The translations under genes were made by a program, and so were the position numbers. From IMG/VR virus record IMGVR_UViG_2627854098_000006: a stretch of 20,045 nucleotides of DNA. One strand, 5' to 3'. Of this stretch, positions 11,868 to 16,271 are shown in pieces. The stretch is from a virus (taxonomy: Duplodnaviria; Heunggongvirae; Uroviricota; Caudoviricetes). Below the pieces are notes generated by a model. That model searched no databases and had not been told where the DNA came from. It was given only the letters and a program-made list of their open reading frames with translations. The stretch's first letter is position 1. Each line of letters starts with the position of its first letter.

Positions 11868-12089
11868 TGTTCACCTTTTTCCTTTTCTCCTTTTAATTCA
11901 TTGTGTTAATGGGTGAACAGTTTCACAAAAACTATTCACCAACTGTTCACCACTGTTCACCCTTAAAGCTCAACAAATAATCAAAAAGGTGAACAGTGAA
12001 TAGTTTGATGAACAGTTCATGAATAACTGTTCACCCTATAACCAACTGATATAGAACACATTTATTACAGGGTGAACAGTGATGAACAG
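11868..12089. repeat. Iteron array: TGTTCACC / GGTGAACA octamers (P4 ori/crr type I iteron sequence)
   Basis: Perfect TGTTCACC at 11868, 11944, 11954, 12028; perfect GGTGAACA at 11912, 11988, 12071; variants at 11933, 12008, 12082. Lies immediately 3' of the primase gene. Confidence 0.8.
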
Positions 12090-12102: not shown

Positions 12103-13917
12103 TTAATTTTTGCCATCGTCATTTGTGACCGATGCACATGAGGGCATCCAGTCTTCTGAATCCTCTGTCAGTATCACGTTTGAACGCAAGCCATGCTTCG
12201 TTTTCCGTTTCATATACTCCCTGCCGTATTCCGCCATTGCCCCTGGCATATCCTTACCGAAGCGTGTCAGTGTTACGGGCTTACCGAATCCGTGTGCCCT
12301 CATATACGCCAGATAGGCGTGATAGAGATACCTGCGCGGGCTGAACGGAATAATTTCAGCATTACCCACTAACAGGCCATCGCACATTACCGACGACATG
12401 AGATAGCCGCAGAAGTCCACCAGCGAATCGCCCTCGCGTTTTATCACTAGGGCTTCTTCTGATTTCTGCTGCTCATATAGCAGGCGTTTAGCTTCGTCCT
12501 GGTCAGAAAAGCGTGTAAGCAGGTGGCGAATCACTACCGCCAGCTCTCCTTCTATTTTTTCAGCCAGCATAGGGTCACGTTCGTTCTCCGGTACAACTTC
12601 CGAAAAATTGAATATTACCCGACGACGTGATATCCCACCGCTGCGGTCACTGAATGACATGGCGTTATTGTTCACCGCCAGCACGACCGCCTGAATGCGT
12701 GTTGAGTAGGGGGCTTTATGTTTCGGGTCGATTGCCACCTTATCACCGCCTGTAATGGCCTTAATTCCTGCACCATCACCAGCGTAACGGGTCATATCCG
12801 GCATAATAATCAGCGAAAAGCCAACCACTAACGCGCGTTCCCTGGCATCTTCCAGCGCCTTCATGCTTGCCGATACCGTGTTGGCCTTACCCGCCAGCAT
12901 AGTGCAAATCTCCGCCATTACGCTTTTACCGCTTCCACCCGGCCCCGTTACCTCAAGAAATAACTGCCAGTCGTACCGATTCGCCAGCACCATGAATAAC
13001 GCCGCCAGTACGCGATCCGCTTTGCGTTCATTCTCTGCCACCGAACGGCGCAACCATTTCCAGAAATTCGGCGCATGCGTTGCCAGCGTTTCCCCCTCTG
13101 CTGGCGGGTTGAACGGTAATTCACTGGCAATTAACAACCAGTCGTTTTTGTCGTGCTCCCGAAAATCGCCTGTCCGGGTATCAAAAACACCGTTACTGAA
13201 TCCAATCAGGTTACGGGCGGTATTCCCCATTACGGGCAAACTTAACTTCATGGTATCGACCGCCGATTTGATGGCGTTCTGCGAATAGCTGATTTCCGCA
13301 TCAATAAAAATCTGCGCCATAGCCCGCTGTAACTCTTTATCCTGTACCGGCTCCCATACAACACCGTTGTAGTGGTGAACGGTGTCAGAATCCGCATTGA
13401 TTGCCAGTTCACCGCCATAATGTGCCAGGAGAACTTCGCCGCGCTGGCTTGCTCCCATCTGGTTAAGTGCCAGTGGTGTCGCGCTGTCTTCTGTTTTTTT
13501 CTTTGCCGGAAACCGGATAATCAGTCCGTCATCAATGTTTTTACGCTCACGGGCAAGGTATTCACGCCAGTTTTCACACTTCTGGCTGTGCATGCCATCA
13601 GGGTAATAATTCGCATTCTGTATACTTGCCGCCGCCAGCTTCTGACCAATTGCCTTAACCATTACAGGATCTAACTGTCCGGCTCTGAATATGCGCGCGG
13701 ATGTGCGCCCATCAGGCACTATTTGCAGATTTCCGATCTCTTTCAGTTGTTCATCAGCCAGCACAACAGGTGGCTCATTATCTCCAGCCATACGCGCATC
13801 GTGCTCCTGCCATTGTTTCGCGTGTGCCCAGGCATCACTACCCGCGAAAATAATTACCTCTGTGTCTTTGTGTTTTATTCCGCGTGGCTGTTTTTTTACG
13901 TTCGGTGCCAGTTTCAT
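12103..13917 (-). CDS. Phage/plasmid primase-helicase, P4 alpha-type C-terminal NTPase domain
   Basis: 604 aa; Walker A VTGPGGSGKSV and a downstream hydrophobic-D Walker B candidate (LVVGFSLIIMPDM); last gene of a coupled operon (ATGA overlap at 13914-13917); iterons downstream. Confidence 0.75.
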   Translation of the reverse strand: MKLAPNVKKQPRGIKHKDTEVIIFAGSDAWAHAKQWQEHDARMAGDNEPPVVLADEQLKEIGNLQIVPDGRTSARIFRAGQLDPVMVKAIGQKLAAASIQNANYYPDGMHSQKCENWREYLARERKNIDDGLIIRFPAKKKTEDSATPLALNQMGASQRGEVLLAHYGGELAINADSDTVHHYNGVVWEPVQDKELQRAMAQIFIDAEISYSQNAIKSAVDTMKLSLPVMGNTARNLIGFSNGVFDTRTGDFREHDKNDWLLIASELPFNPPAEGETLATHAPNFWKWLRRSVAENERKADRVLAALFMVLANRYDWQLFLEVTGPGGSGKSVMAEICTMLAGKANTVSASMKALEDARERALVVGFSLIIMPDMTRYAGDGAGIKAITGGDKVAIDPKHKAPYSTRIQAVVLAVNNNAMSFSDRSGGISRRRVIFNFSEVVPENERDPMLAEKIEGELAVVIRHLLTRFSDQDEAKRLLYEQQKSEEALVIKREGDSLVDFCGYLMSSVMCDGLLVGNAEIIPFSPRRYLYHAYLAYMRAHGFGKPVTLTRFGKDMPGAMAEYGREYMKRKTKHGLRSNVILTEDSEDWMPSCASVTNDDGKN

Positions 13918-14156
13918 TTTTTCCCCCCTGCAACCAGCATTTCACGGATTTTGCGGATATAGCTTGCTGCACGTTTTTGATTTACGGCTTTATAATGGTC
14001 CACCAGCGTAAAATCACGGCGGTAGGTGATATTGCCTGGCGTAACGTGACGAATAACCACTCGTCCCCCACGTCTGGTGTCGCGGTAAATATCTCCGAGT
14101 CTGATTTCAGGCCGAGAGAGACCGCTGGCAGTAAAGCCAGAATTTTTCTTTTTCAT
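13914..14156 (-). CDS. Hypothetical protein (80 aa), early operon
   Basis: ATG with AGGAAA upstream; coupled to the primase gene. Confidence 0.5.
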   Translation of the reverse strand: MKKKNSGFTASGLSRPEIRLGDIYRDTRRGGRVVIRHVTPGNITYRRDFTLVDHYKAVNQKRAASYIRKIREMLVAGGKK

Positions 14157-14160
14157 GGTT

Positions 14161-14361
14161 TTATTTTCCTGTCAGCAGTTCCGGTTTTATTTCCGCACGA
14201 ATATAAAGTTCAGAAAAAAATTCAGGAGAACCAACAATCTCATTACTTTTCAGTCGGCATTGTGATTTCACTTTCCCTTTATCCAGGTAAACCAGTACGC
14301 GTCCGGTGAAATCATCTGGCACATTAAGCACTACGGGTACATGCGCTTCATGATTATGCAT
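14161..14361 (-). CDS. Hypothetical protein (66 aa) carrying one copy of an FTG-x-x-L-V...G motif domain
   Basis: ATG with GGAGGA upstream; 8-nt overlap with the upstream gene; N-terminus MHNHEAHVPVVLNVPDDFTGRVLVYLDKGKV parallels the N-terminus of the 14580-14945 protein. Confidence 0.55.
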   Translation of the reverse strand: MHNHEAHVPVVLNVPDDFTGRVLVYLDKGKVKSQCRLKSNEIVGSPEFFSELYIRAEIKPELLTGK

Positions 14362-14587
14362 GGCTTACATCCTCCGTGAATTTTCTTCTGTAACGCGTCT
14401 CTGCCACATATTCCGCATAGTCCGACGCAATACTAAGAATCATTTCACCCTCTGACTTGTAGCCACTGGTATTGATAAGAAAATATGCAGCTTTCATCAT
14501 GTCAGCAACGCTCAACAATGCGCCCGCTGCATCTTCCGGTGCGCCATCAAATTCCCGTTTCAGGGAATTAAAACGATCATCACGCAT
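14354..14587 (-). CDS. Hypothetical protein (77 aa), early operon
   Basis: ATG with AGGGGGGG upstream; 8-nt overlaps on both sides. Confidence 0.5.
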   Translation of the reverse strand: MRDDRFNSLKREFDGAPEDAAGALLSVADMMKAAYFLINTSGYKSEGEMILSIASDYAEYVAETRYRRKFTEDVSHA

Positions 14588-14945
14588 GTTTCCCCCCCTG
14601 AATGACCTGATAACCGCAACTGGTCAGCAACTCGATAAATTCCGGCAGTGTACCGAAACAGCAATCATCACGCAGCCGTTCGCAGGATACCTCGACGCCG
14701 TTTTCGTAGTGACTCACCATACGTCCGGTAAAATGCAGATCATCATCGTGATGGCTCGTTGACGGCTTAATCAGTCGCACACGTTCCGCCAGTTCCAGCA
14801 ATGCTTCAACGCTTCCGGCAATTGCACCATCCGGCAGGTGATAATTACGCACTATGCGCCCGTTCTCCACATTGACCAGCAACTGCCCGGTAAATTTCTC
14901 GTCAAACTGAATGCTGTTAAGGTCAGAAATTGACAGGTTATGCAT
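14580..14945 (-). CDS. Hypothetical protein (121 aa) with two tandem copies of the FTG-motif domain
   Basis: ATG at 14943-14945 preceded by AGGAGGTG (the ORF-track start at 14963 lacks an RBS); MHNLSISDLNSIQFDEKFTGQLLVNVENGRIV and DDDLHFTGRMVSHYENGVEV are internal repeats. Confidence 0.55.
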   Translation of the reverse strand: MHNLSISDLNSIQFDEKFTGQLLVNVENGRIVRNYHLPDGAIAGSVEALLELAERVRLIKPSTSHHDDDLHFTGRMVSHYENGVEVSCERLRDDCCFGTLPEFIELLTSCGYQVIQGGKHA

Positions 14946-15162
14946 GGTGCACCTCCTGCACATCAGCCATGATAATTTTTCCGGCCTTATCCAGTGCCTG
15001 ATCGGCTTTTAGCTGCACAAATGCTAAATAATGGAAGATGCATTCTGATTCTCTGGCTGCGTGTTTATGCGCCACACCAGCGATAGCAGAAATCTCAATA
15101 AGTGAATCCATCAGCGTTTTGATAGCGTCTACCGCTGCATCAGGCCATGTTGCATTACACAT
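14938..15162 (-). CDS. Hypothetical protein (74 aa), early operon
   Basis: ATG at 15160-15162 preceded by AGGAGGTG; 8-nt overlap with the upstream gene. Confidence 0.5.
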   Translation of the reverse strand: MCNATWPDAAVDAIKTLMDSLIEISAIAGVAHKHAARESECIFHYLAFVQLKADQALDKAGKIIMADVQEVHHA

Positions 15163-15520
15163 GCTCCACCTCCTGGCGAATACGGGCGGCGAATACCATC
15201 ACGCAGCCATCAGGAGATTGCTGGCGTGCTTCCTGTTCGCTGGTGGCCTCGATGTGAATTACACGCGGTTGTGCTGTGCTCAGGGCGATAAAACGCCATA
15301 TAAAATTGTTTTCGCATTTCTGAATAAACAGCGTGTTTTCTTCGCGCCCTTTCCATGTTGCCGAGATATAGCCCATGTCATTGAGCATCTCGCAGGCATC
15401 AACCAGCGTATCGGCGGCTATGTGTACAGTGTTTTTACCGTCAGCGATGCAATCACGGTGCACCGCCAGGAAGGTGTATATAAATTTAGGGTGAGTTTGG
15501 GTATGCTGTGTTCCAGCCAT
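15155..15520 (-). CDS. Hypothetical protein (121 aa), first gene of the early operon
   Basis: ATG at 15518-15520 preceded by GAGGT (7-nt spacer); corresponds to the C-terminal third of the 512-aa ORF-track entry, the rest of which I regard as read-through. Confidence 0.55.
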   Translation of the reverse strand: MAGTQHTQTHPKFIYTFLAVHRDCIADGKNTVHIAADTLVDACEMLNDMGYISATWKGREENTLFIQKCENNFIWRFIALSTAQPRVIHIEATSEQEARQQSPDGCVMVFAARIRQEVEHV

Positions 15521-15522
15521 AA

Positions 15523-15707
15523 TCGTTACCTCGTTTAACGGTTTGGTTAGACGCCCCGCTACTGCCGCAAACAGTTCGGGGCGTTGTCGTTTACATCCTC
15601 TTACCGAGGTGTGATTTAAATTAAATTTAACTGAATCACAGGTCAAGTATTTTTTGTGATTCTTTTTTGTGTATACTGAATCACATCTTTTGTTTAGGAG
15701 AATGCAC
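15523..15707. promoter_or_regulatory. Divergent control region: leader hairpin plus two palindromic operators TGTGATT-N17-AATCACA
   Basis: Operator O1 15609-15639, O2 15654-15684 (O2 overlaps a TATACT -10-like hexamer at 15671-15676); 8-bp GC-rich stem ACGCCCCG/CGGGGCGT at 15551-15584 in the 5' leader of the minus-strand operon. Confidence 0.6.
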
Positions 15708-16013
15708 ATGGCAAAAAACACTATCAACGACAAATCAAAACAGATTTCAATTCGTATCCCACATGATGCTTTTGAAGGCATGGAATCCGTAAAACTGGAC
15801 GGCGAAAGCAACGCCGGATTCATCGTAACCGCTATGCGCGGTGAGATCGCCCGCCGCCAGGCAGAAGGAAGAGGAGAAAATCCCTTGGTTTCTTCGCTCG
15901 ATGCACTGGCGCAGGTGGAAAAAATCGGAGTCAAAGCTGCCGAGGAGATCGGGCAACTCATCACCGTCGCGCGTGAAGAACTCCAGCGCCGCAAGGCCAA
16001 AGAACAGGAGTAA
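15708..16013 (+). CDS. Small regulatory-type protein (101 aa), divergent from the early operon; candidate repressor
   Basis: ATG at 15708 preceded by AGGAGA (6-nt spacer); N-terminus KQISIRIPHDAFEGMESVKLDGESNAGFIVTAMRGEIARRQ is compatible with a ribbon-helix-helix-like fold (inference only); charged coiled C-terminus. Confidence 0.55.
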   Translation: MAKNTINDKSKQISIRIPHDAFEGMESVKLDGESNAGFIVTAMRGEIARRQAEGRGENPLVSSLDALAQVEKIGVKAAEEIGQLITVAREELQRRKAKEQE

Positions 16014-16070
16014 CCATCACCAGCGCCGTGGTGTGAGGAACTACGGTGCATCGTTTTACAGGGCAGCGCC

Positions 16071-16271
16071 ATGACCAACAAAGAATCAACCAATACACCA
16101 TCACCGGCACGGAAAAGACAGCGCAGAAAGATAGCGTACGAGTATGAGTCAGACAGATTCGCGCCCTGTGCGTTTATCCTTGAGAAATTCCTTAAAGAGT
16201 ACAGGCGCACAAAAATGGGGTCGCATACCTGGAAAACATCGCGGCATGGCAATGTTAAAGAGCAGGAATAG
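16071..16271 (+). CDS. Hypothetical small basic protein (66 aa), weak call
   Basis: ATG start without a clear RBS; plausible composition. Confidence 0.3.
   Translation: MTNKESTNTPSPARKRQRRKIAYEYESDRFAPCAFILEKFLKEYRRTKMGSHTWKTSRHGNVKEQE

What the first reader, a model, noticed from the sequence alone, without database searches (positions are those of the whole stretch)
14161..15520. Early operon of five small proteins joined by repeated 8-nt overlaps, with an internally duplicated ~55-aa domain
Seen: consecutive genes overlap by exactly 8 nt four times (15155/15162, 14938/14945, 14580/14587, 14354/14361), each start preceded by AGGAGG-type sites. The proteins at 14580-14945 and 14161-14361 both begin MHN and share the motif DxFTG-x2-LV-x4-G; the former contains it twice. 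None matches a family I know. Their position upstream of the primase parallels the derepression/accessory genes of P4 but without sequence resemblance I can see.
Basis: partly seen in the sequence, partly recalled or inferred. Interest (0 to 1): 0.5.

Follow-up and report, generated by a model that had tools for sequence, protein, structure and literature searches.

The report
Satellite early operon with antirepressor-like genes
This is the start of the inducible operon of a phage-parasitic island (PICI type) in a chicken-pathogenic E. coli: a chain of tiny, tightly overlapping genes in which the repeated domain belongs to the Rem family, whose founding member switches off a prophage repressor.

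Summary
On the minus strand, five genes (15520-14161) are joined by four exact 8-nt start/stop overlaps (ATGNNTRA). Three are preceded by GGAGG and one by a G7 run. The 121-aa protein carries the FTG...G domain twice and the 66-aa protein carries it once.

The families are known. Gene 1 is Icd-like. The repeated domain is phrog_340 / Pfam PF27490 'Rem', the family of E. coli K-12 Qin Rem, a demonstrated antirepressor of DicA. DUF4222 and a D5/P4-type primase follow in the same operon.

The window is E. coli APEC IMT5155. The element sits at a tRNA-Thr gene and has the Gram-negative PICI layout (int, alpA, Bro-type gene, replication module). It lacks the P4 genes sid, psu and delta.

In 12 related loci from E. 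coli, Hafnia and Serratia, the same SD-ATG-N5-stop linker joins a variable set of small cassettes. Similarity blocks between loci end at these linkers.

Most likely mechanism (inferred): one regulated initiation at the Icd-like gene drives coupled translation down to the primase. The Rem-like proteins neutralise short, non-cleavable repressors of resident lambdoid prophages, much as P4 epsilon does to P2 C. No target has been tested.

It is a new member of known kinds, of moderate interest.

The parts
15155..15520 (-). g1: Icd-like protein, 121 aa, with an N-terminal extension
   Evidence: NF033153 phage_ICD_like scores 80.4 bits against a cutoff of 25, at aa 73-116. An HMM I built from 10 Icd-like genes of related loci hits aa 5-23 and 70-121, so about 46 residues are inserted after a duplicated first strand. 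PGAP starts this gene at 15376 in this genome. It calls the full 366-nt ORF in another genome, as do other gene callers. The start and leader are conserved in Hafnia and Serratia.
14938..15162 (-). g2 ('X' cassette): 74-aa protein of unknown function
   Evidence: phrog_5146 E=1.3e-49. No Pfam, NCBIfam, PADLOC or PDB match. In other elements it is fused to g4-like (154 aa, L018, which corresponds to phrog_2512) and to Rem domains (P0203, P0170).
14580..14945 (-). g3: tandem Rem-domain protein, 121 aa (copy A aa 1-62 = 14760-14945; copy B aa 63-121 = 14583-14759)
   Evidence: phrog_340 E=2e-29 in two stretches. Copy A vs copy B gives BLASTP E=5e-6. Homologs 79-85% identical carry precomputed PF27490. 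Two-domain homologs occur in Hafnia and Serratia. AlphaFold shows the strand-strand-strand-helix unit twice.
14354..14587 (-). g4 ('Y' cassette): 77-aa protein of unknown function
   Evidence: phrog_24341 E=2.7e-49 and the C-terminal half of phrog_2512 E=7.8e-48. Natural g3+g4 fusions of 196 aa exist. They arise from one G fewer in the junction G-run.
14161..14361 (-). g5: single Rem-domain protein, 66 aa
   Evidence: phrog_340 E=1.7e-20. BLASTP to g3 E=1e-6. A profile that includes g5 matches K-12 Rem with 94% probability, E=1.2e-7. In other loci a 77-aa 'E' cassette takes this position instead.
13914..14156 (-). g6: DUF4222 protein, 80 aa
   Evidence: PF13973 E=3.9e-8. It lies directly upstream of the replicase in all 12 loci and overlaps it by 4 nt.
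12103..13917 (-). Primase-helicase (D5_N, DUF5906, Pox_D5), 604 aa; last gene of the chain
   Evidence: Pfam hits. PGAP calls it 'DNA primase family protein'.
15155..15174 (-). Junction g1/g2: AGGAGG-N6-ATGTGTAA
14938..14957 (-). Junction g2/g3: AGGAGG-N6-ATGCATAA
14580..14599 (-). Junction g3/g4: G7-AAAC-ATGCGTGA. The length of the G-run decides between separate and fused proteins in relatives.
14354..14375 (-). Junction g4/g5: GGAGG-N9-ATGCATAA
15521..15584 (-). Conserved structured 5' leader of g1. It has a GC-rich two-tier hairpin, then a CGUUA/UAACG stem with the Shine-Dalgarno (SD) sequence in its loop and the AUG partly paired.
   Evidence: The leader is conserved in E. coli, E. ruysiae, Hafnia and Serratia islands and in phages mEp460 and Klebsiella P12620-1. 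RNAalifold predicts 19 pairs, 3 of them with compensatory changes. The fold has z=-2.5. There is no significant Rfam match. The best is RF00043 at 18.6 bits against a gathering score of 55.
15618..15685 (-). Putative promoter (TTGACC 15646-15641, weak -10 TAATTT 15623-15618) with two copies of TGTGATTCAGT (15685-15675 and 15640-15630), each paired with a downstream AATCACA
   Evidence: Read from the sequence. The direct repeat is family D13. The consensus scan did not call this promoter, so it is only putative.
15708..16013 (+). Divergent YlcI/YnfO-family gene (101 aa), a candidate repressor of the operon
   Evidence: PGAP name. phrog_6522 E=2.8e-57. The ribbon-helix-helix look is my reading of the sequence and was not tested.

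Best explanation
The region is the promoter-proximal half of the inducible rightward operon of a Gram-negative PICI-type phage satellite. The satellite is integrated next to a tRNA-Thr gene downstream of proA in E. coli APEC IMT5155.

The proposed sequence of events is as follows. Transcription starts at a weak promoter that carries two inverted-repeat operators and faces a divergent YlcI/YnfO-like regulator. The mRNA begins with a conserved structured leader that holds the g1 ribosome-binding site in a hairpin. g1 is Icd-like, the family of P1 Icd.

Ribosomes that finish each gene stop 5 nt downstream of the next AUG, and an SD sequence lies 6-9 nt upstream of that AUG. g2 to g5 are therefore probably made largely by termination-reinitiation, in fixed ratios. 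Control exerted at g1 would then spread down the chain, through DUF4222 (4-nt gap) to the primase (ATGA overlap).

g3 (two copies) and g5 (one copy) carry the Rem antirepressor domain. They most likely bind and inactivate short, non-cleavable DicA/GfoR-type repressors of resident or incoming lambdoid phages. That would force or sustain helper lytic development, as P4 epsilon does with P2 C. g2 and g4 probably act with them, because in other elements they occur as X-Y, Rem-Y, X-Rem-Rem and Rem-X-Rem fusions.

Shown: gene structure, overlaps, family memberships, island type, conservation and shuffling of cassettes. Inferred: translational coupling, leader control, antirepressor activity and its target.
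For: Anatomy and overlaps.

Island context: int, alpA, antA, YlcI/YnfO, then Icd-like ... DUF4222, primase, ProQ, PerC. The same operon type occurs in the CFT073 island beside roxA, which I take to be the model PICI EcCICFT073, and in other E. coli islands, in Hafnia capsid-forming PICIs and in a Serratia island. The four-zone PICI layout is described in PMC10111431, and AlpA-dependent induction in PMC6092414.

Rem family:
- g3, g5 and K-12 Rem all match phrog_340 (E=2e-29, 1.7e-20 and 4.4e-21).
- hhalign of the domain profile against Rem gives 94% probability, E=1.2e-7.
- Homologs carry precomputed PF27490 'Rem'.
- Rem derepresses dicBp 165-fold (PMC10448788).
- The domain is also found fused to Bro-N, and the Hafnia homolog weakly matches an 'anti-repressor' PHROG.

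Coupling: overlaps from -8 nt to gaps of +10 nt are treated as predictive of termination-reinitiation. In E. coli such pairs are enriched for subunits of heteromeric complexes, 30.4% against 6.8% (PMC10666635). Natural fusions of the cassettes fit a complex.

Functional relevance of the operon type: in ECOR61 a 366-nt Icd-like gene and two small genes next to it were hit by suppressors of phage-gene-triggered cell death. [quoted passage not shown]
Against: - No target repressor was identified, and I did not check whether IMT5155 carries a DicA-type prophage.
- The CFT073 island analysed here (L013) has no Rem cassette, so Rem-like proteins are accessory and not core to the PICI cycle. The helpers reported for EcCICFT073, lambda and phi80 (PMC6092414), use CI repressors that I take to be RecA-cleavable (my knowledge).
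- The hhalign match to Rem covers only its last 43 residues. The direct match to the Gifsy antirepressor GfoA is weak (probability 9%, pairwise E=0.004).
- The structure models are of only moderate confidence, and no fold match was found.
- Each gene has its own SD, so independent initiation is possible. The 8-nt overlaps are reported to reinitiate less efficiently than 4- or 1-nt overlaps (PMC10666635).
- The promoter is weak by consensus and was not called by the scan.
Confidence: 0.6

Rival explanations
1. The operon is mainly a satellite-borne abortive-infection or superinfection-exclusion module. A phage protein triggers its expression, the Icd-like protein (helped by the small proteins and runaway primase-driven replication) stops division or kills the cell, and the Rem-like proteins are sensors or adaptors rather than helper antirepressors.
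For: In ECOR61, transposon suppressors of orf24-triggered death mapped to a 366-nt Icd-like gene and two adjacent small genes. By their coordinates these have 8-nt and 1-nt overlaps. [quoted passage not shown] Uncontrolled EcCICFT073 replication reduces viability (PMC6092414).
Against: The ECOR61 small genes encode 61 and 63 aa and may not be Rem, X or Y. I could not retrieve that contig. No PADLOC model matches any of the seven proteins. Death on forced induction would be expected of any induced PICI, so this reading is compatible with the best explanation rather than exclusive of it.
Confidence: 0.25
2. The Rem-like proteins act on the island's own regulator (the divergent YlcI/YnfO-like protein or another island repressor). 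This would give positive feedback that locks the satellite into its induced state.
For: The operon faces a small divergent regulator and carries repeated operators. Qin Rem acts on the repressor of its own prophage (PMC10448788).
Against: YlcI/YnfO proteins are unrelated to DicA-type HTH repressors (no shared family). Rem cassettes are absent from many islands that keep the YlcI/YnfO gene, such as L013, L015, L019 and L020.
Confidence: 0.1
3. The small proteins are replication accessory factors for the primase (origin recognition, loading or copy control). The overlaps are inherited by descent and serve no regulatory purpose.
For: They lie directly upstream of DUF4222 and the replicase in every locus. 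One distant family member is fused to a DnaG-type zinc ribbon.
Against: The same cassettes sit upstream of three unrelated replicase types: D5/P4 primase, RepA-like helicase/AAA_25 and DUF927. Their number and order vary freely, which is unlike dedicated replication partners. Rem itself is a transcription-level antirepressor.
Confidence: 0.07

Closest known systems
E. coli K-12 Qin prophage Rem (b1561), antirepressor of DicA (PMC10448788)
   Same: Same PHROG family (phrog_340) and the Pfam family named after it. There is a profile-level match over the hairpin-strand-helix core. Both are small proteins of mobile elements in Enterobacteriaceae.
   Different: Rem is an 83-aa, single-domain protein with an internal insertion, and it lies in the nin/Q region of a lambdoid prophage. 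Here the domain is tandemly duplicated in g3 and present again in g5. Both sit in a satellite's translationally linked operon. Activity and target are untested.
Gram-negative PICIs (EcCICFT073 type; PMC6092414, PMC10111431)
   Same: int, alpA, Bro-network gene, then Icd-like gene, small genes, DUF4222, primase, then SSB/ProQ/PerC. Integration beside a tRNA gene. No virion genes. The CFT073 island beside roxA has the same linker-joined array.
   Different: This island carries a different cassette set (X, Rem2, Y, Rem1) and a 121-aa Icd-like gene. Mobilisation by a helper was not tested. The small-gene array has not, to my knowledge, been described in those papers.
P4 left operon (eta/kil ... 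epsilon ... alpha)
   Same: A satellite operon in which an Icd-like/Kil-type gene and small accessory genes precede the primase. P4 epsilon is an antirepressor of the helper's repressor (my knowledge of Liu and Haggard-Ljungquist's work). In P4, translation of eta controls read-through into downstream genes (PMC10111431).
   Different: No sid, psu or delta. I did not test for a match to epsilon. No C4/CI-type immunity RNA was detected. The primase is of the D5/Pox_D5 type with different neighbours.
P1 immI operon (c4 RNA, icd, ant)
   Same: An Icd-family gene opens an operon whose downstream genes depend on its translation (my knowledge of Riedel, Heinrich and Schuster's work). The downstream cargo includes antirepressor function.
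   Different: No c4-like RNA by Rfam. The antirepressor family differs (Rem-like here, Ant in P1). Here there are four successive 8-nt overlaps.
ECOR61 prophage-encoded cell-death locus (Silas et al., bioRxiv 10.1101/2023.04.06.535777)
   Same: An Icd-like gene of the same length (366 nt) described as having a 'long N-terminal extension', followed by small genes with an 8-nt overlap, and linked to a DNA primase.

Membership tests
Rem antirepressor family (phrog_340 / Pfam PF27490) | Significant match to the family profile | tested here: met
   phrog_340: g3 E=2e-29 (two stretches), g5 E=1.7e-20, K-12 Rem E=4.4e-21. PF27490 is not in the local Pfam copy, since Rem itself gets no hit there. It is recorded as a precomputed hit on homologs 79-85% identical to g3 and on the Hafnia and Serratia homologs.
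Rem antirepressor family (phrog_340 / Pfam PF27490) | Profile-level homology to the characterised protein Rem | tested here: met
   hhalign of the 46-sequence domain profile against K-12 Rem: 94% probability, E=1.2e-7, 43 columns.
Rem antirepressor family (phrog_340 / Pfam PF27490) | Relieves repression by a DicA/GfoR-type repressor | not testable with these tools
   Needs a reporter or binding assay.
Gifsy-type antirepressors (GfoA/GftA/FsoA) | Detectable homology to GfoA | tested here: inconclusive
   hhalign against Gifsy-1 GfoA (identified by position as the ORF after dinI, L028 36665-36886): probability 8.8%, pairwise E=0.004, in the expected register. GfoA falls in a different PHROG, phrog_4847. 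The published link is by transitive PSI-BLAST (PMC10448788).
Gram-negative PICI | int, alpA and a primase/replicase in one orientation, integrated at a specific site | tested here: met
   Integrase 18831-20045, AlpA 17564-17761 and primase 12103-13917, all on the minus strand and next to a tRNA-Thr gene.
Gram-negative PICI | No phage structural or lysis genes; small size (about 10-15 kb) | tested here: met
   PGAP table of the island, about 13.5 kb from int to the DUF4747 pair. PHROG scan of the remaining ORFs found only a weak TerS/HTH-like N-terminus.
Gram-negative PICI | Induction, replication and packaging depend on a helper phage | not testable with these tools
   Experimental.
P4-like satellite | Presence of sid, psu and delta besides int, alpA and alpha | tested here: not met
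   None is annotated in the island, and there are no PHROG hits to such functions. Epsilon was not searched for specifically.
P4/P1-type RNA immunity (C4/isrK/CI) | Rfam C4 or isrK match near the Icd-like gene | tested here: not met
   No such match in the whole window at E<=1 or in 15440-15720 at E<=10.
Icd-like proteins (NF033153) | Score above the curated cutoff | tested here: met
   g1 scores 80.4 bits against a cutoff of 25. Cell-division inhibition itself is not testable here.
Translationally coupled (termination-reinitiation) gene pairs | Same-strand distance between -8 and +10 nt, with the start region inside the upstream gene | tested here: met
   Four overlaps of 8 nt, one 4-nt gap and one 4-nt overlap. 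The criterion is from PMC10666635.
Translationally coupled (termination-reinitiation) gene pairs | Downstream translation depends on upstream translation | not testable with these tools
   Needs reporter fusions with premature stop codons.
HicB N-terminal-like fold (my own early guess) | Structural or profile similarity to HicB | tested here: not met

The most novel reading that the evidence does not exclude
The conserved roughly 20-nt linker (CAGGrGGTG..CC-ATG-NNT-RA) may be more than a coupling signal. It could be the joint of a plug-and-play cassette array. Under this reading, small anti-helper genes (Rem-like antirepressors, X, Y, E, F and others) are swapped, reordered, duplicated and fused between PICIs by recombination at the linkers. 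Slippage in the G-run Shine-Dalgarno sequence would toggle between separate and fused proteins. The Rem-like cassettes would then be a diversifying repertoire that matches the repressors of locally available helper prophages. A second element of this reading is the shared structured leader, also present upstream of rem in phage mEp460. It could be the missing input that controls Rem-type antirepressor production.
Probability: 0.25. Interest if true: 0.65.

Novelty: new member of a known kind. Interest (0 to 1): 0.42.

Why it matters
Gram-negative PICIs are common: 1501 of 5426 complete E. coli genomes match part of this operon. Yet the genes between alpA and the primase are annotated as hypothetical. 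How these islands talk to their helper prophages, beyond AlpA, is still open.

Placing two of these genes in the family of a proven antirepressor gives a testable idea. The satellite may switch on, or keep on, lambdoid prophages that use non-cleavable DicA/GfoR-type repressors. The idea also connects to a published observation that an Icd-like operon of this kind can kill cells when a phage gene triggers it.

The linker-joined cassette array and the conserved leader are simple features that could be screened across thousands of islands.

Tried and rejected
- The AFDB Foldseek library was unavailable.
- The local Pfam copy has no model for g2-g5 and lacks PF27490.
- NCBIfam matched only g1. PADLOC matched none of the seven proteins.
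- tblastn of g3 against 50,697 phage records found no match.
- Single-sequence PDB searches of g1, g2 and g4 found no match.
- No c4/CI-type immunity RNA was found. The weak RF00043 (R1162 antisense RNA) match to the leader, at 18.6 bits against a gathering score of 55, is not evidence. I could not find a convincing antisense promoter by eye.
- A search of species-representative genomes with the domain alignment failed for lack of conserved stretches. With g1 it returned only 3 loci.
- An internal duplication of g1 is not supported by BLASTP (E=0.056). Only the first strand is repeated according to the HMM.
- Hits of the domain profile to long repeat proteins (P0136, P0155) are hairpin-repeat look-alikes, not family members.
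- I could not retrieve the ECOR61 contig, so identity of that locus with this one is unproven.
Full report
**Where the window comes from.** The window is 100% identical to E. coli APEC IMT5155, NZ_CP005930.1. In the RefSeq annotation, the region lies in an island next to a tRNA-Thr gene downstream of proA. On the window's minus strand the island reads: integrase, a 238-aa protein, an AlpA-type HTH protein, and an AntA/AntB protein. Two small genes follow on the opposite strand, one of them YlcI/YnfO family. The minus strand then continues with an 'Icd-like' gene, four hypothetical genes, DUF4222, a primase, further small ORFs (one a frameshifted SSB-like pseudogene), ProQ/FinO, PerC and a DUF4747 pair. 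A truncated integrase fragment, a vat toxin remnant and IS66 lie beyond it.

**Checking the observation.** The five ORFs and the four 8-nt overlaps are exactly as described.
- The junctions are ATGTGTAA, ATGCATAA, ATGCGTGA and ATGCATAA.
- Three are preceded by (A)GGAGG 6-9 nt upstream. The fourth is preceded by a run of seven G.
- The chain does not end at 14161. DUF4222 follows after 4 nt, and the primase overlaps DUF4222 by ATGA.
- The shared motif is real but looser than written; the common core is FTG-x8-G.
- Homology of the three copies is supported by BLASTP (E=1e-6, 4e-4 and 5e-6).
- It is also supported by an independent profile, phrog_340, which hits g3 twice and g5 once.
- AlphaFold models, of moderate confidence only, repeat a strand-strand-strand-helix unit in g3 and give a hairpin plus helix in g5.

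**What the proteins are.** g1 passes the NCBIfam Icd-like model (80 bits against a cutoff of 25). Its first 23 residues repeat the start of that domain, followed by an insert of about 46 residues. The 121-aa reading is used by other gene callers and by PGAP in another genome, although PGAP starts the gene at 15376 in this genome.

The repeated domain forms a small family. An exhaustive HMM search of 1.84 billion cluster representatives found only 79 at E<=0.001. Most are 60-130 aa, with occasional fusions to Bro-N or a DnaG zinc ribbon. Two-domain homologs in Hafnia and Serratia carry a precomputed Pfam hit, PF27490, named 'Rem'.

Rem is a gene of the K-12 Qin prophage. The domain profile matches it at 94% probability, E=1.2e-7, and Rem itself belongs to phrog_340. 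Rem has been shown to relieve DicA repression of dicBp 165-fold and to cause filamentation through dicBF. Its authors found it by transitive searches from the Gifsy and Fels antirepressors GfoA and FsoA (PMC10448788; PMC3121763). My direct comparison with GfoA is weak, although it aligns in the expected register.

g2 and g4 have PHROG families of unknown function and no other match.

**What the element is.** The gene order matches Gram-negative PICIs and their four zones: integration, Bro, replication, late (PMC6092414, PMC10111431). It does not match P4, because no sid, psu or delta is present. No C4/CI-type RNA is detected either.

The CFT073 island beside roxA, which I take to be the model PICI EcCICFT073, and other E. 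coli islands at other integration sites have the same operon type. So do a helper-embedded PICI, Hafnia capsid-forming PICIs and a Serratia island.

**The array and its linkers.** I compared 12 loci. Each has an Icd-like gene, then one to five small cassettes, then DUF4222 and a replicase.
- The cassettes are X (g2-like), one- or two-domain Rem, Y (g4-like), E, F, G and H.
- The replicase is one of three unrelated types.
- Cassette order and content vary. Rem can follow Icd, X or Y, and g5 alternates with cassette E at the last position.
- Of 61 junctions, 24 overlap by 8 nt and 8 overlap by 11 nt.
- The consensus is tCAGGrGGtG..cC-ATG-yrT-AAT.

This nucleotide constraint explains the similar C-terminal tails (Q-E/G-V/G-x-H-A/V-stop) of otherwise unrelated proteins. 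It also partly explains the shared 'MHN' start.

BLASTN blocks between this operon and 17 loci end within 12 nt of a junction start codon 20 times out of 73. Chance would give 6.7 +/- 2.5, and none of 10,000 randomisations reached 20. The loci are related, so this test is indicative rather than rigorous. The same block boundaries recur among 1501 matching E. coli genomes.

Fusions occur naturally. X+Y (154 aa) corresponds to phrog_2512. Rem2+Y (196 aa) arises from one G fewer in the junction G-run. X-Rem-Rem and Rem-X-Rem occur in other elements. Rare deletion hybrids join copies at the FTG motif (P0046, P0070).

**How it probably works.** Overlaps from -8 nt to gaps of +10 nt are treated as predictive of termination-reinitiation. 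In E. coli such pairs are enriched 4.5-fold for subunits of complexes. The 8-nt class is the shortest possible overlap in its phase and reinitiates less efficiently than the 4- or 1-nt classes (PMC10666635).

With the SD sites and the natural fusions, I infer three things. The small proteins are made in fixed ratios. X, Rem and Y work together. Initiation at g1 gates the whole chain down to the primase.

g1 has a leader conserved across genera and in two phages. It consists of a GC-rich hairpin with compensatory changes and a second stem that holds the SD in its loop. The leader is not in Rfam. Its role is unknown.

For g3 and g5, the best-supported function is antirepression of short DicA/GfoR-type repressors, which are reported as homologues in most E. 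coli genomes (PMC3121763).

The antirepressor role is an inference from family membership only. The Rem cassette is optional among PICIs, and no target was sought in this genome.

**A related published result.** In ECOR61, suppressors of cell death triggered by a phage accessory gene mapped to an Icd-like gene of the same 366-nt length and to two adjacent small genes. All six linked genes, including a primase, were needed to reconstitute the effect (10.1101/2023.04.06.535777). This shows that such operons are active and toxic when triggered. It also supplies the main rival reading, abortive infection. I could not obtain that contig to compare the cassettes.

**Verdict.** The finding is real and was well observed. 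Its parts belong to known kinds: a PICI early operon, an Icd-like gene, the Rem antirepressor family, and coupled overlapping genes. The new elements are the tandem Rem protein in a satellite, the recurrent linker-joined cassette array, and the conserved leader. I rate it a new member of known kinds, with moderate interest.

Noticed in passing
window 15521-15584 (- strand); also L025 2464-2551 (phage mEp460), L026, L002, L005, L010, L014, L021: The 5' leader of the Icd-like gene is conserved and structured. It has a two-tier GC hairpin with compensatory changes and a CGUUA/UAACG stem with the SD in its loop. It is shared by PICIs of four genera and two phages. In mEp460 it lies about 0.9 kb upstream of rem. 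There is no Rfam family for it; the only match is a weak one to RF00043.
   Followed up: partly
window 15618-15685 and 15708-16271 (+ strand genes): The intergenic region carries two copies of TGTGATTCAGT, each paired with AATCACA, around a weak promoter. A YlcI/YnfO-family gene plus a 66-aa gene lie on the other side. This looks like a candidate repressor/operator switch for an island type said to lack a known master repressor.
   Followed up: partly
window 14592-14598 (G7 run at the g3/g4 junction); L021 and L023 around 3360: The Shine-Dalgarno sequence here is a homopolymeric G-run. Relatives with G5, compared with G6 in L014 (separate genes) and G7 here, have g3 and g4 fused in frame into a 196-aa protein. 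The X/Y junction in other islands has eight G. This may be slippage-driven switching between fused and separate proteins.
   Followed up: partly
window 15376 vs 15520: RefSeq starts the Icd-like gene at 15376 (73 aa) in this genome. It annotates the full 366-nt ORF in another genome (L024). The conserved leader and N-terminus favour 15520.
   Followed up: yes
window 11908-12039 (- strand): A long imperfect hairpin rich in GTTCAC/GTGAAC repeats lies just downstream of the primase gene. Rfam gave only spurious microRNA hits. It is probably the island's replication origin, which in PICIs lies after pri.
   Followed up: no
window 6588-8080 (- strand): A DUF4747 protein (297 aa) overlaps a 199-aa partner by 1 nt at the distal end of the island, where accessory or defence cargo usually sits. 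Neither has a PADLOC match.
   Followed up: partly
window 8886-9413 (- strand): A 175-aa protein has an N-terminus that weakly resembles the small terminase subunit or Cox-like HTH proteins (phrog_57 E=4e-6). It may be a counterpart of the PICI packaging-redirection protein Rpp.
   Followed up: no
window 1-4960 and L001 24968-31801: Beyond the island lie a truncated integrase fragment, a MarR gene, a truncated vat autotransporter gene and IS66 elements. These are a second, decayed island abutting the satellite.
   Followed up: no
P0046, P0070 (homologs of g3 and g5): Rare natural hybrids join Rem copy A to copy B, or g3 to g5, exactly at the FTG motif, where the DNA shares about 8 nt. These are deletions between the paralogous copies.
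   Followed up: partly
L024 (E. coli A287): The same operon type, with a 121-aa Icd-like gene and a TIR-domain gene next to alpA, sits inside the major capsid gene of a lambdoid prophage. This is a helper-embedded PICI.
   Followed up: no
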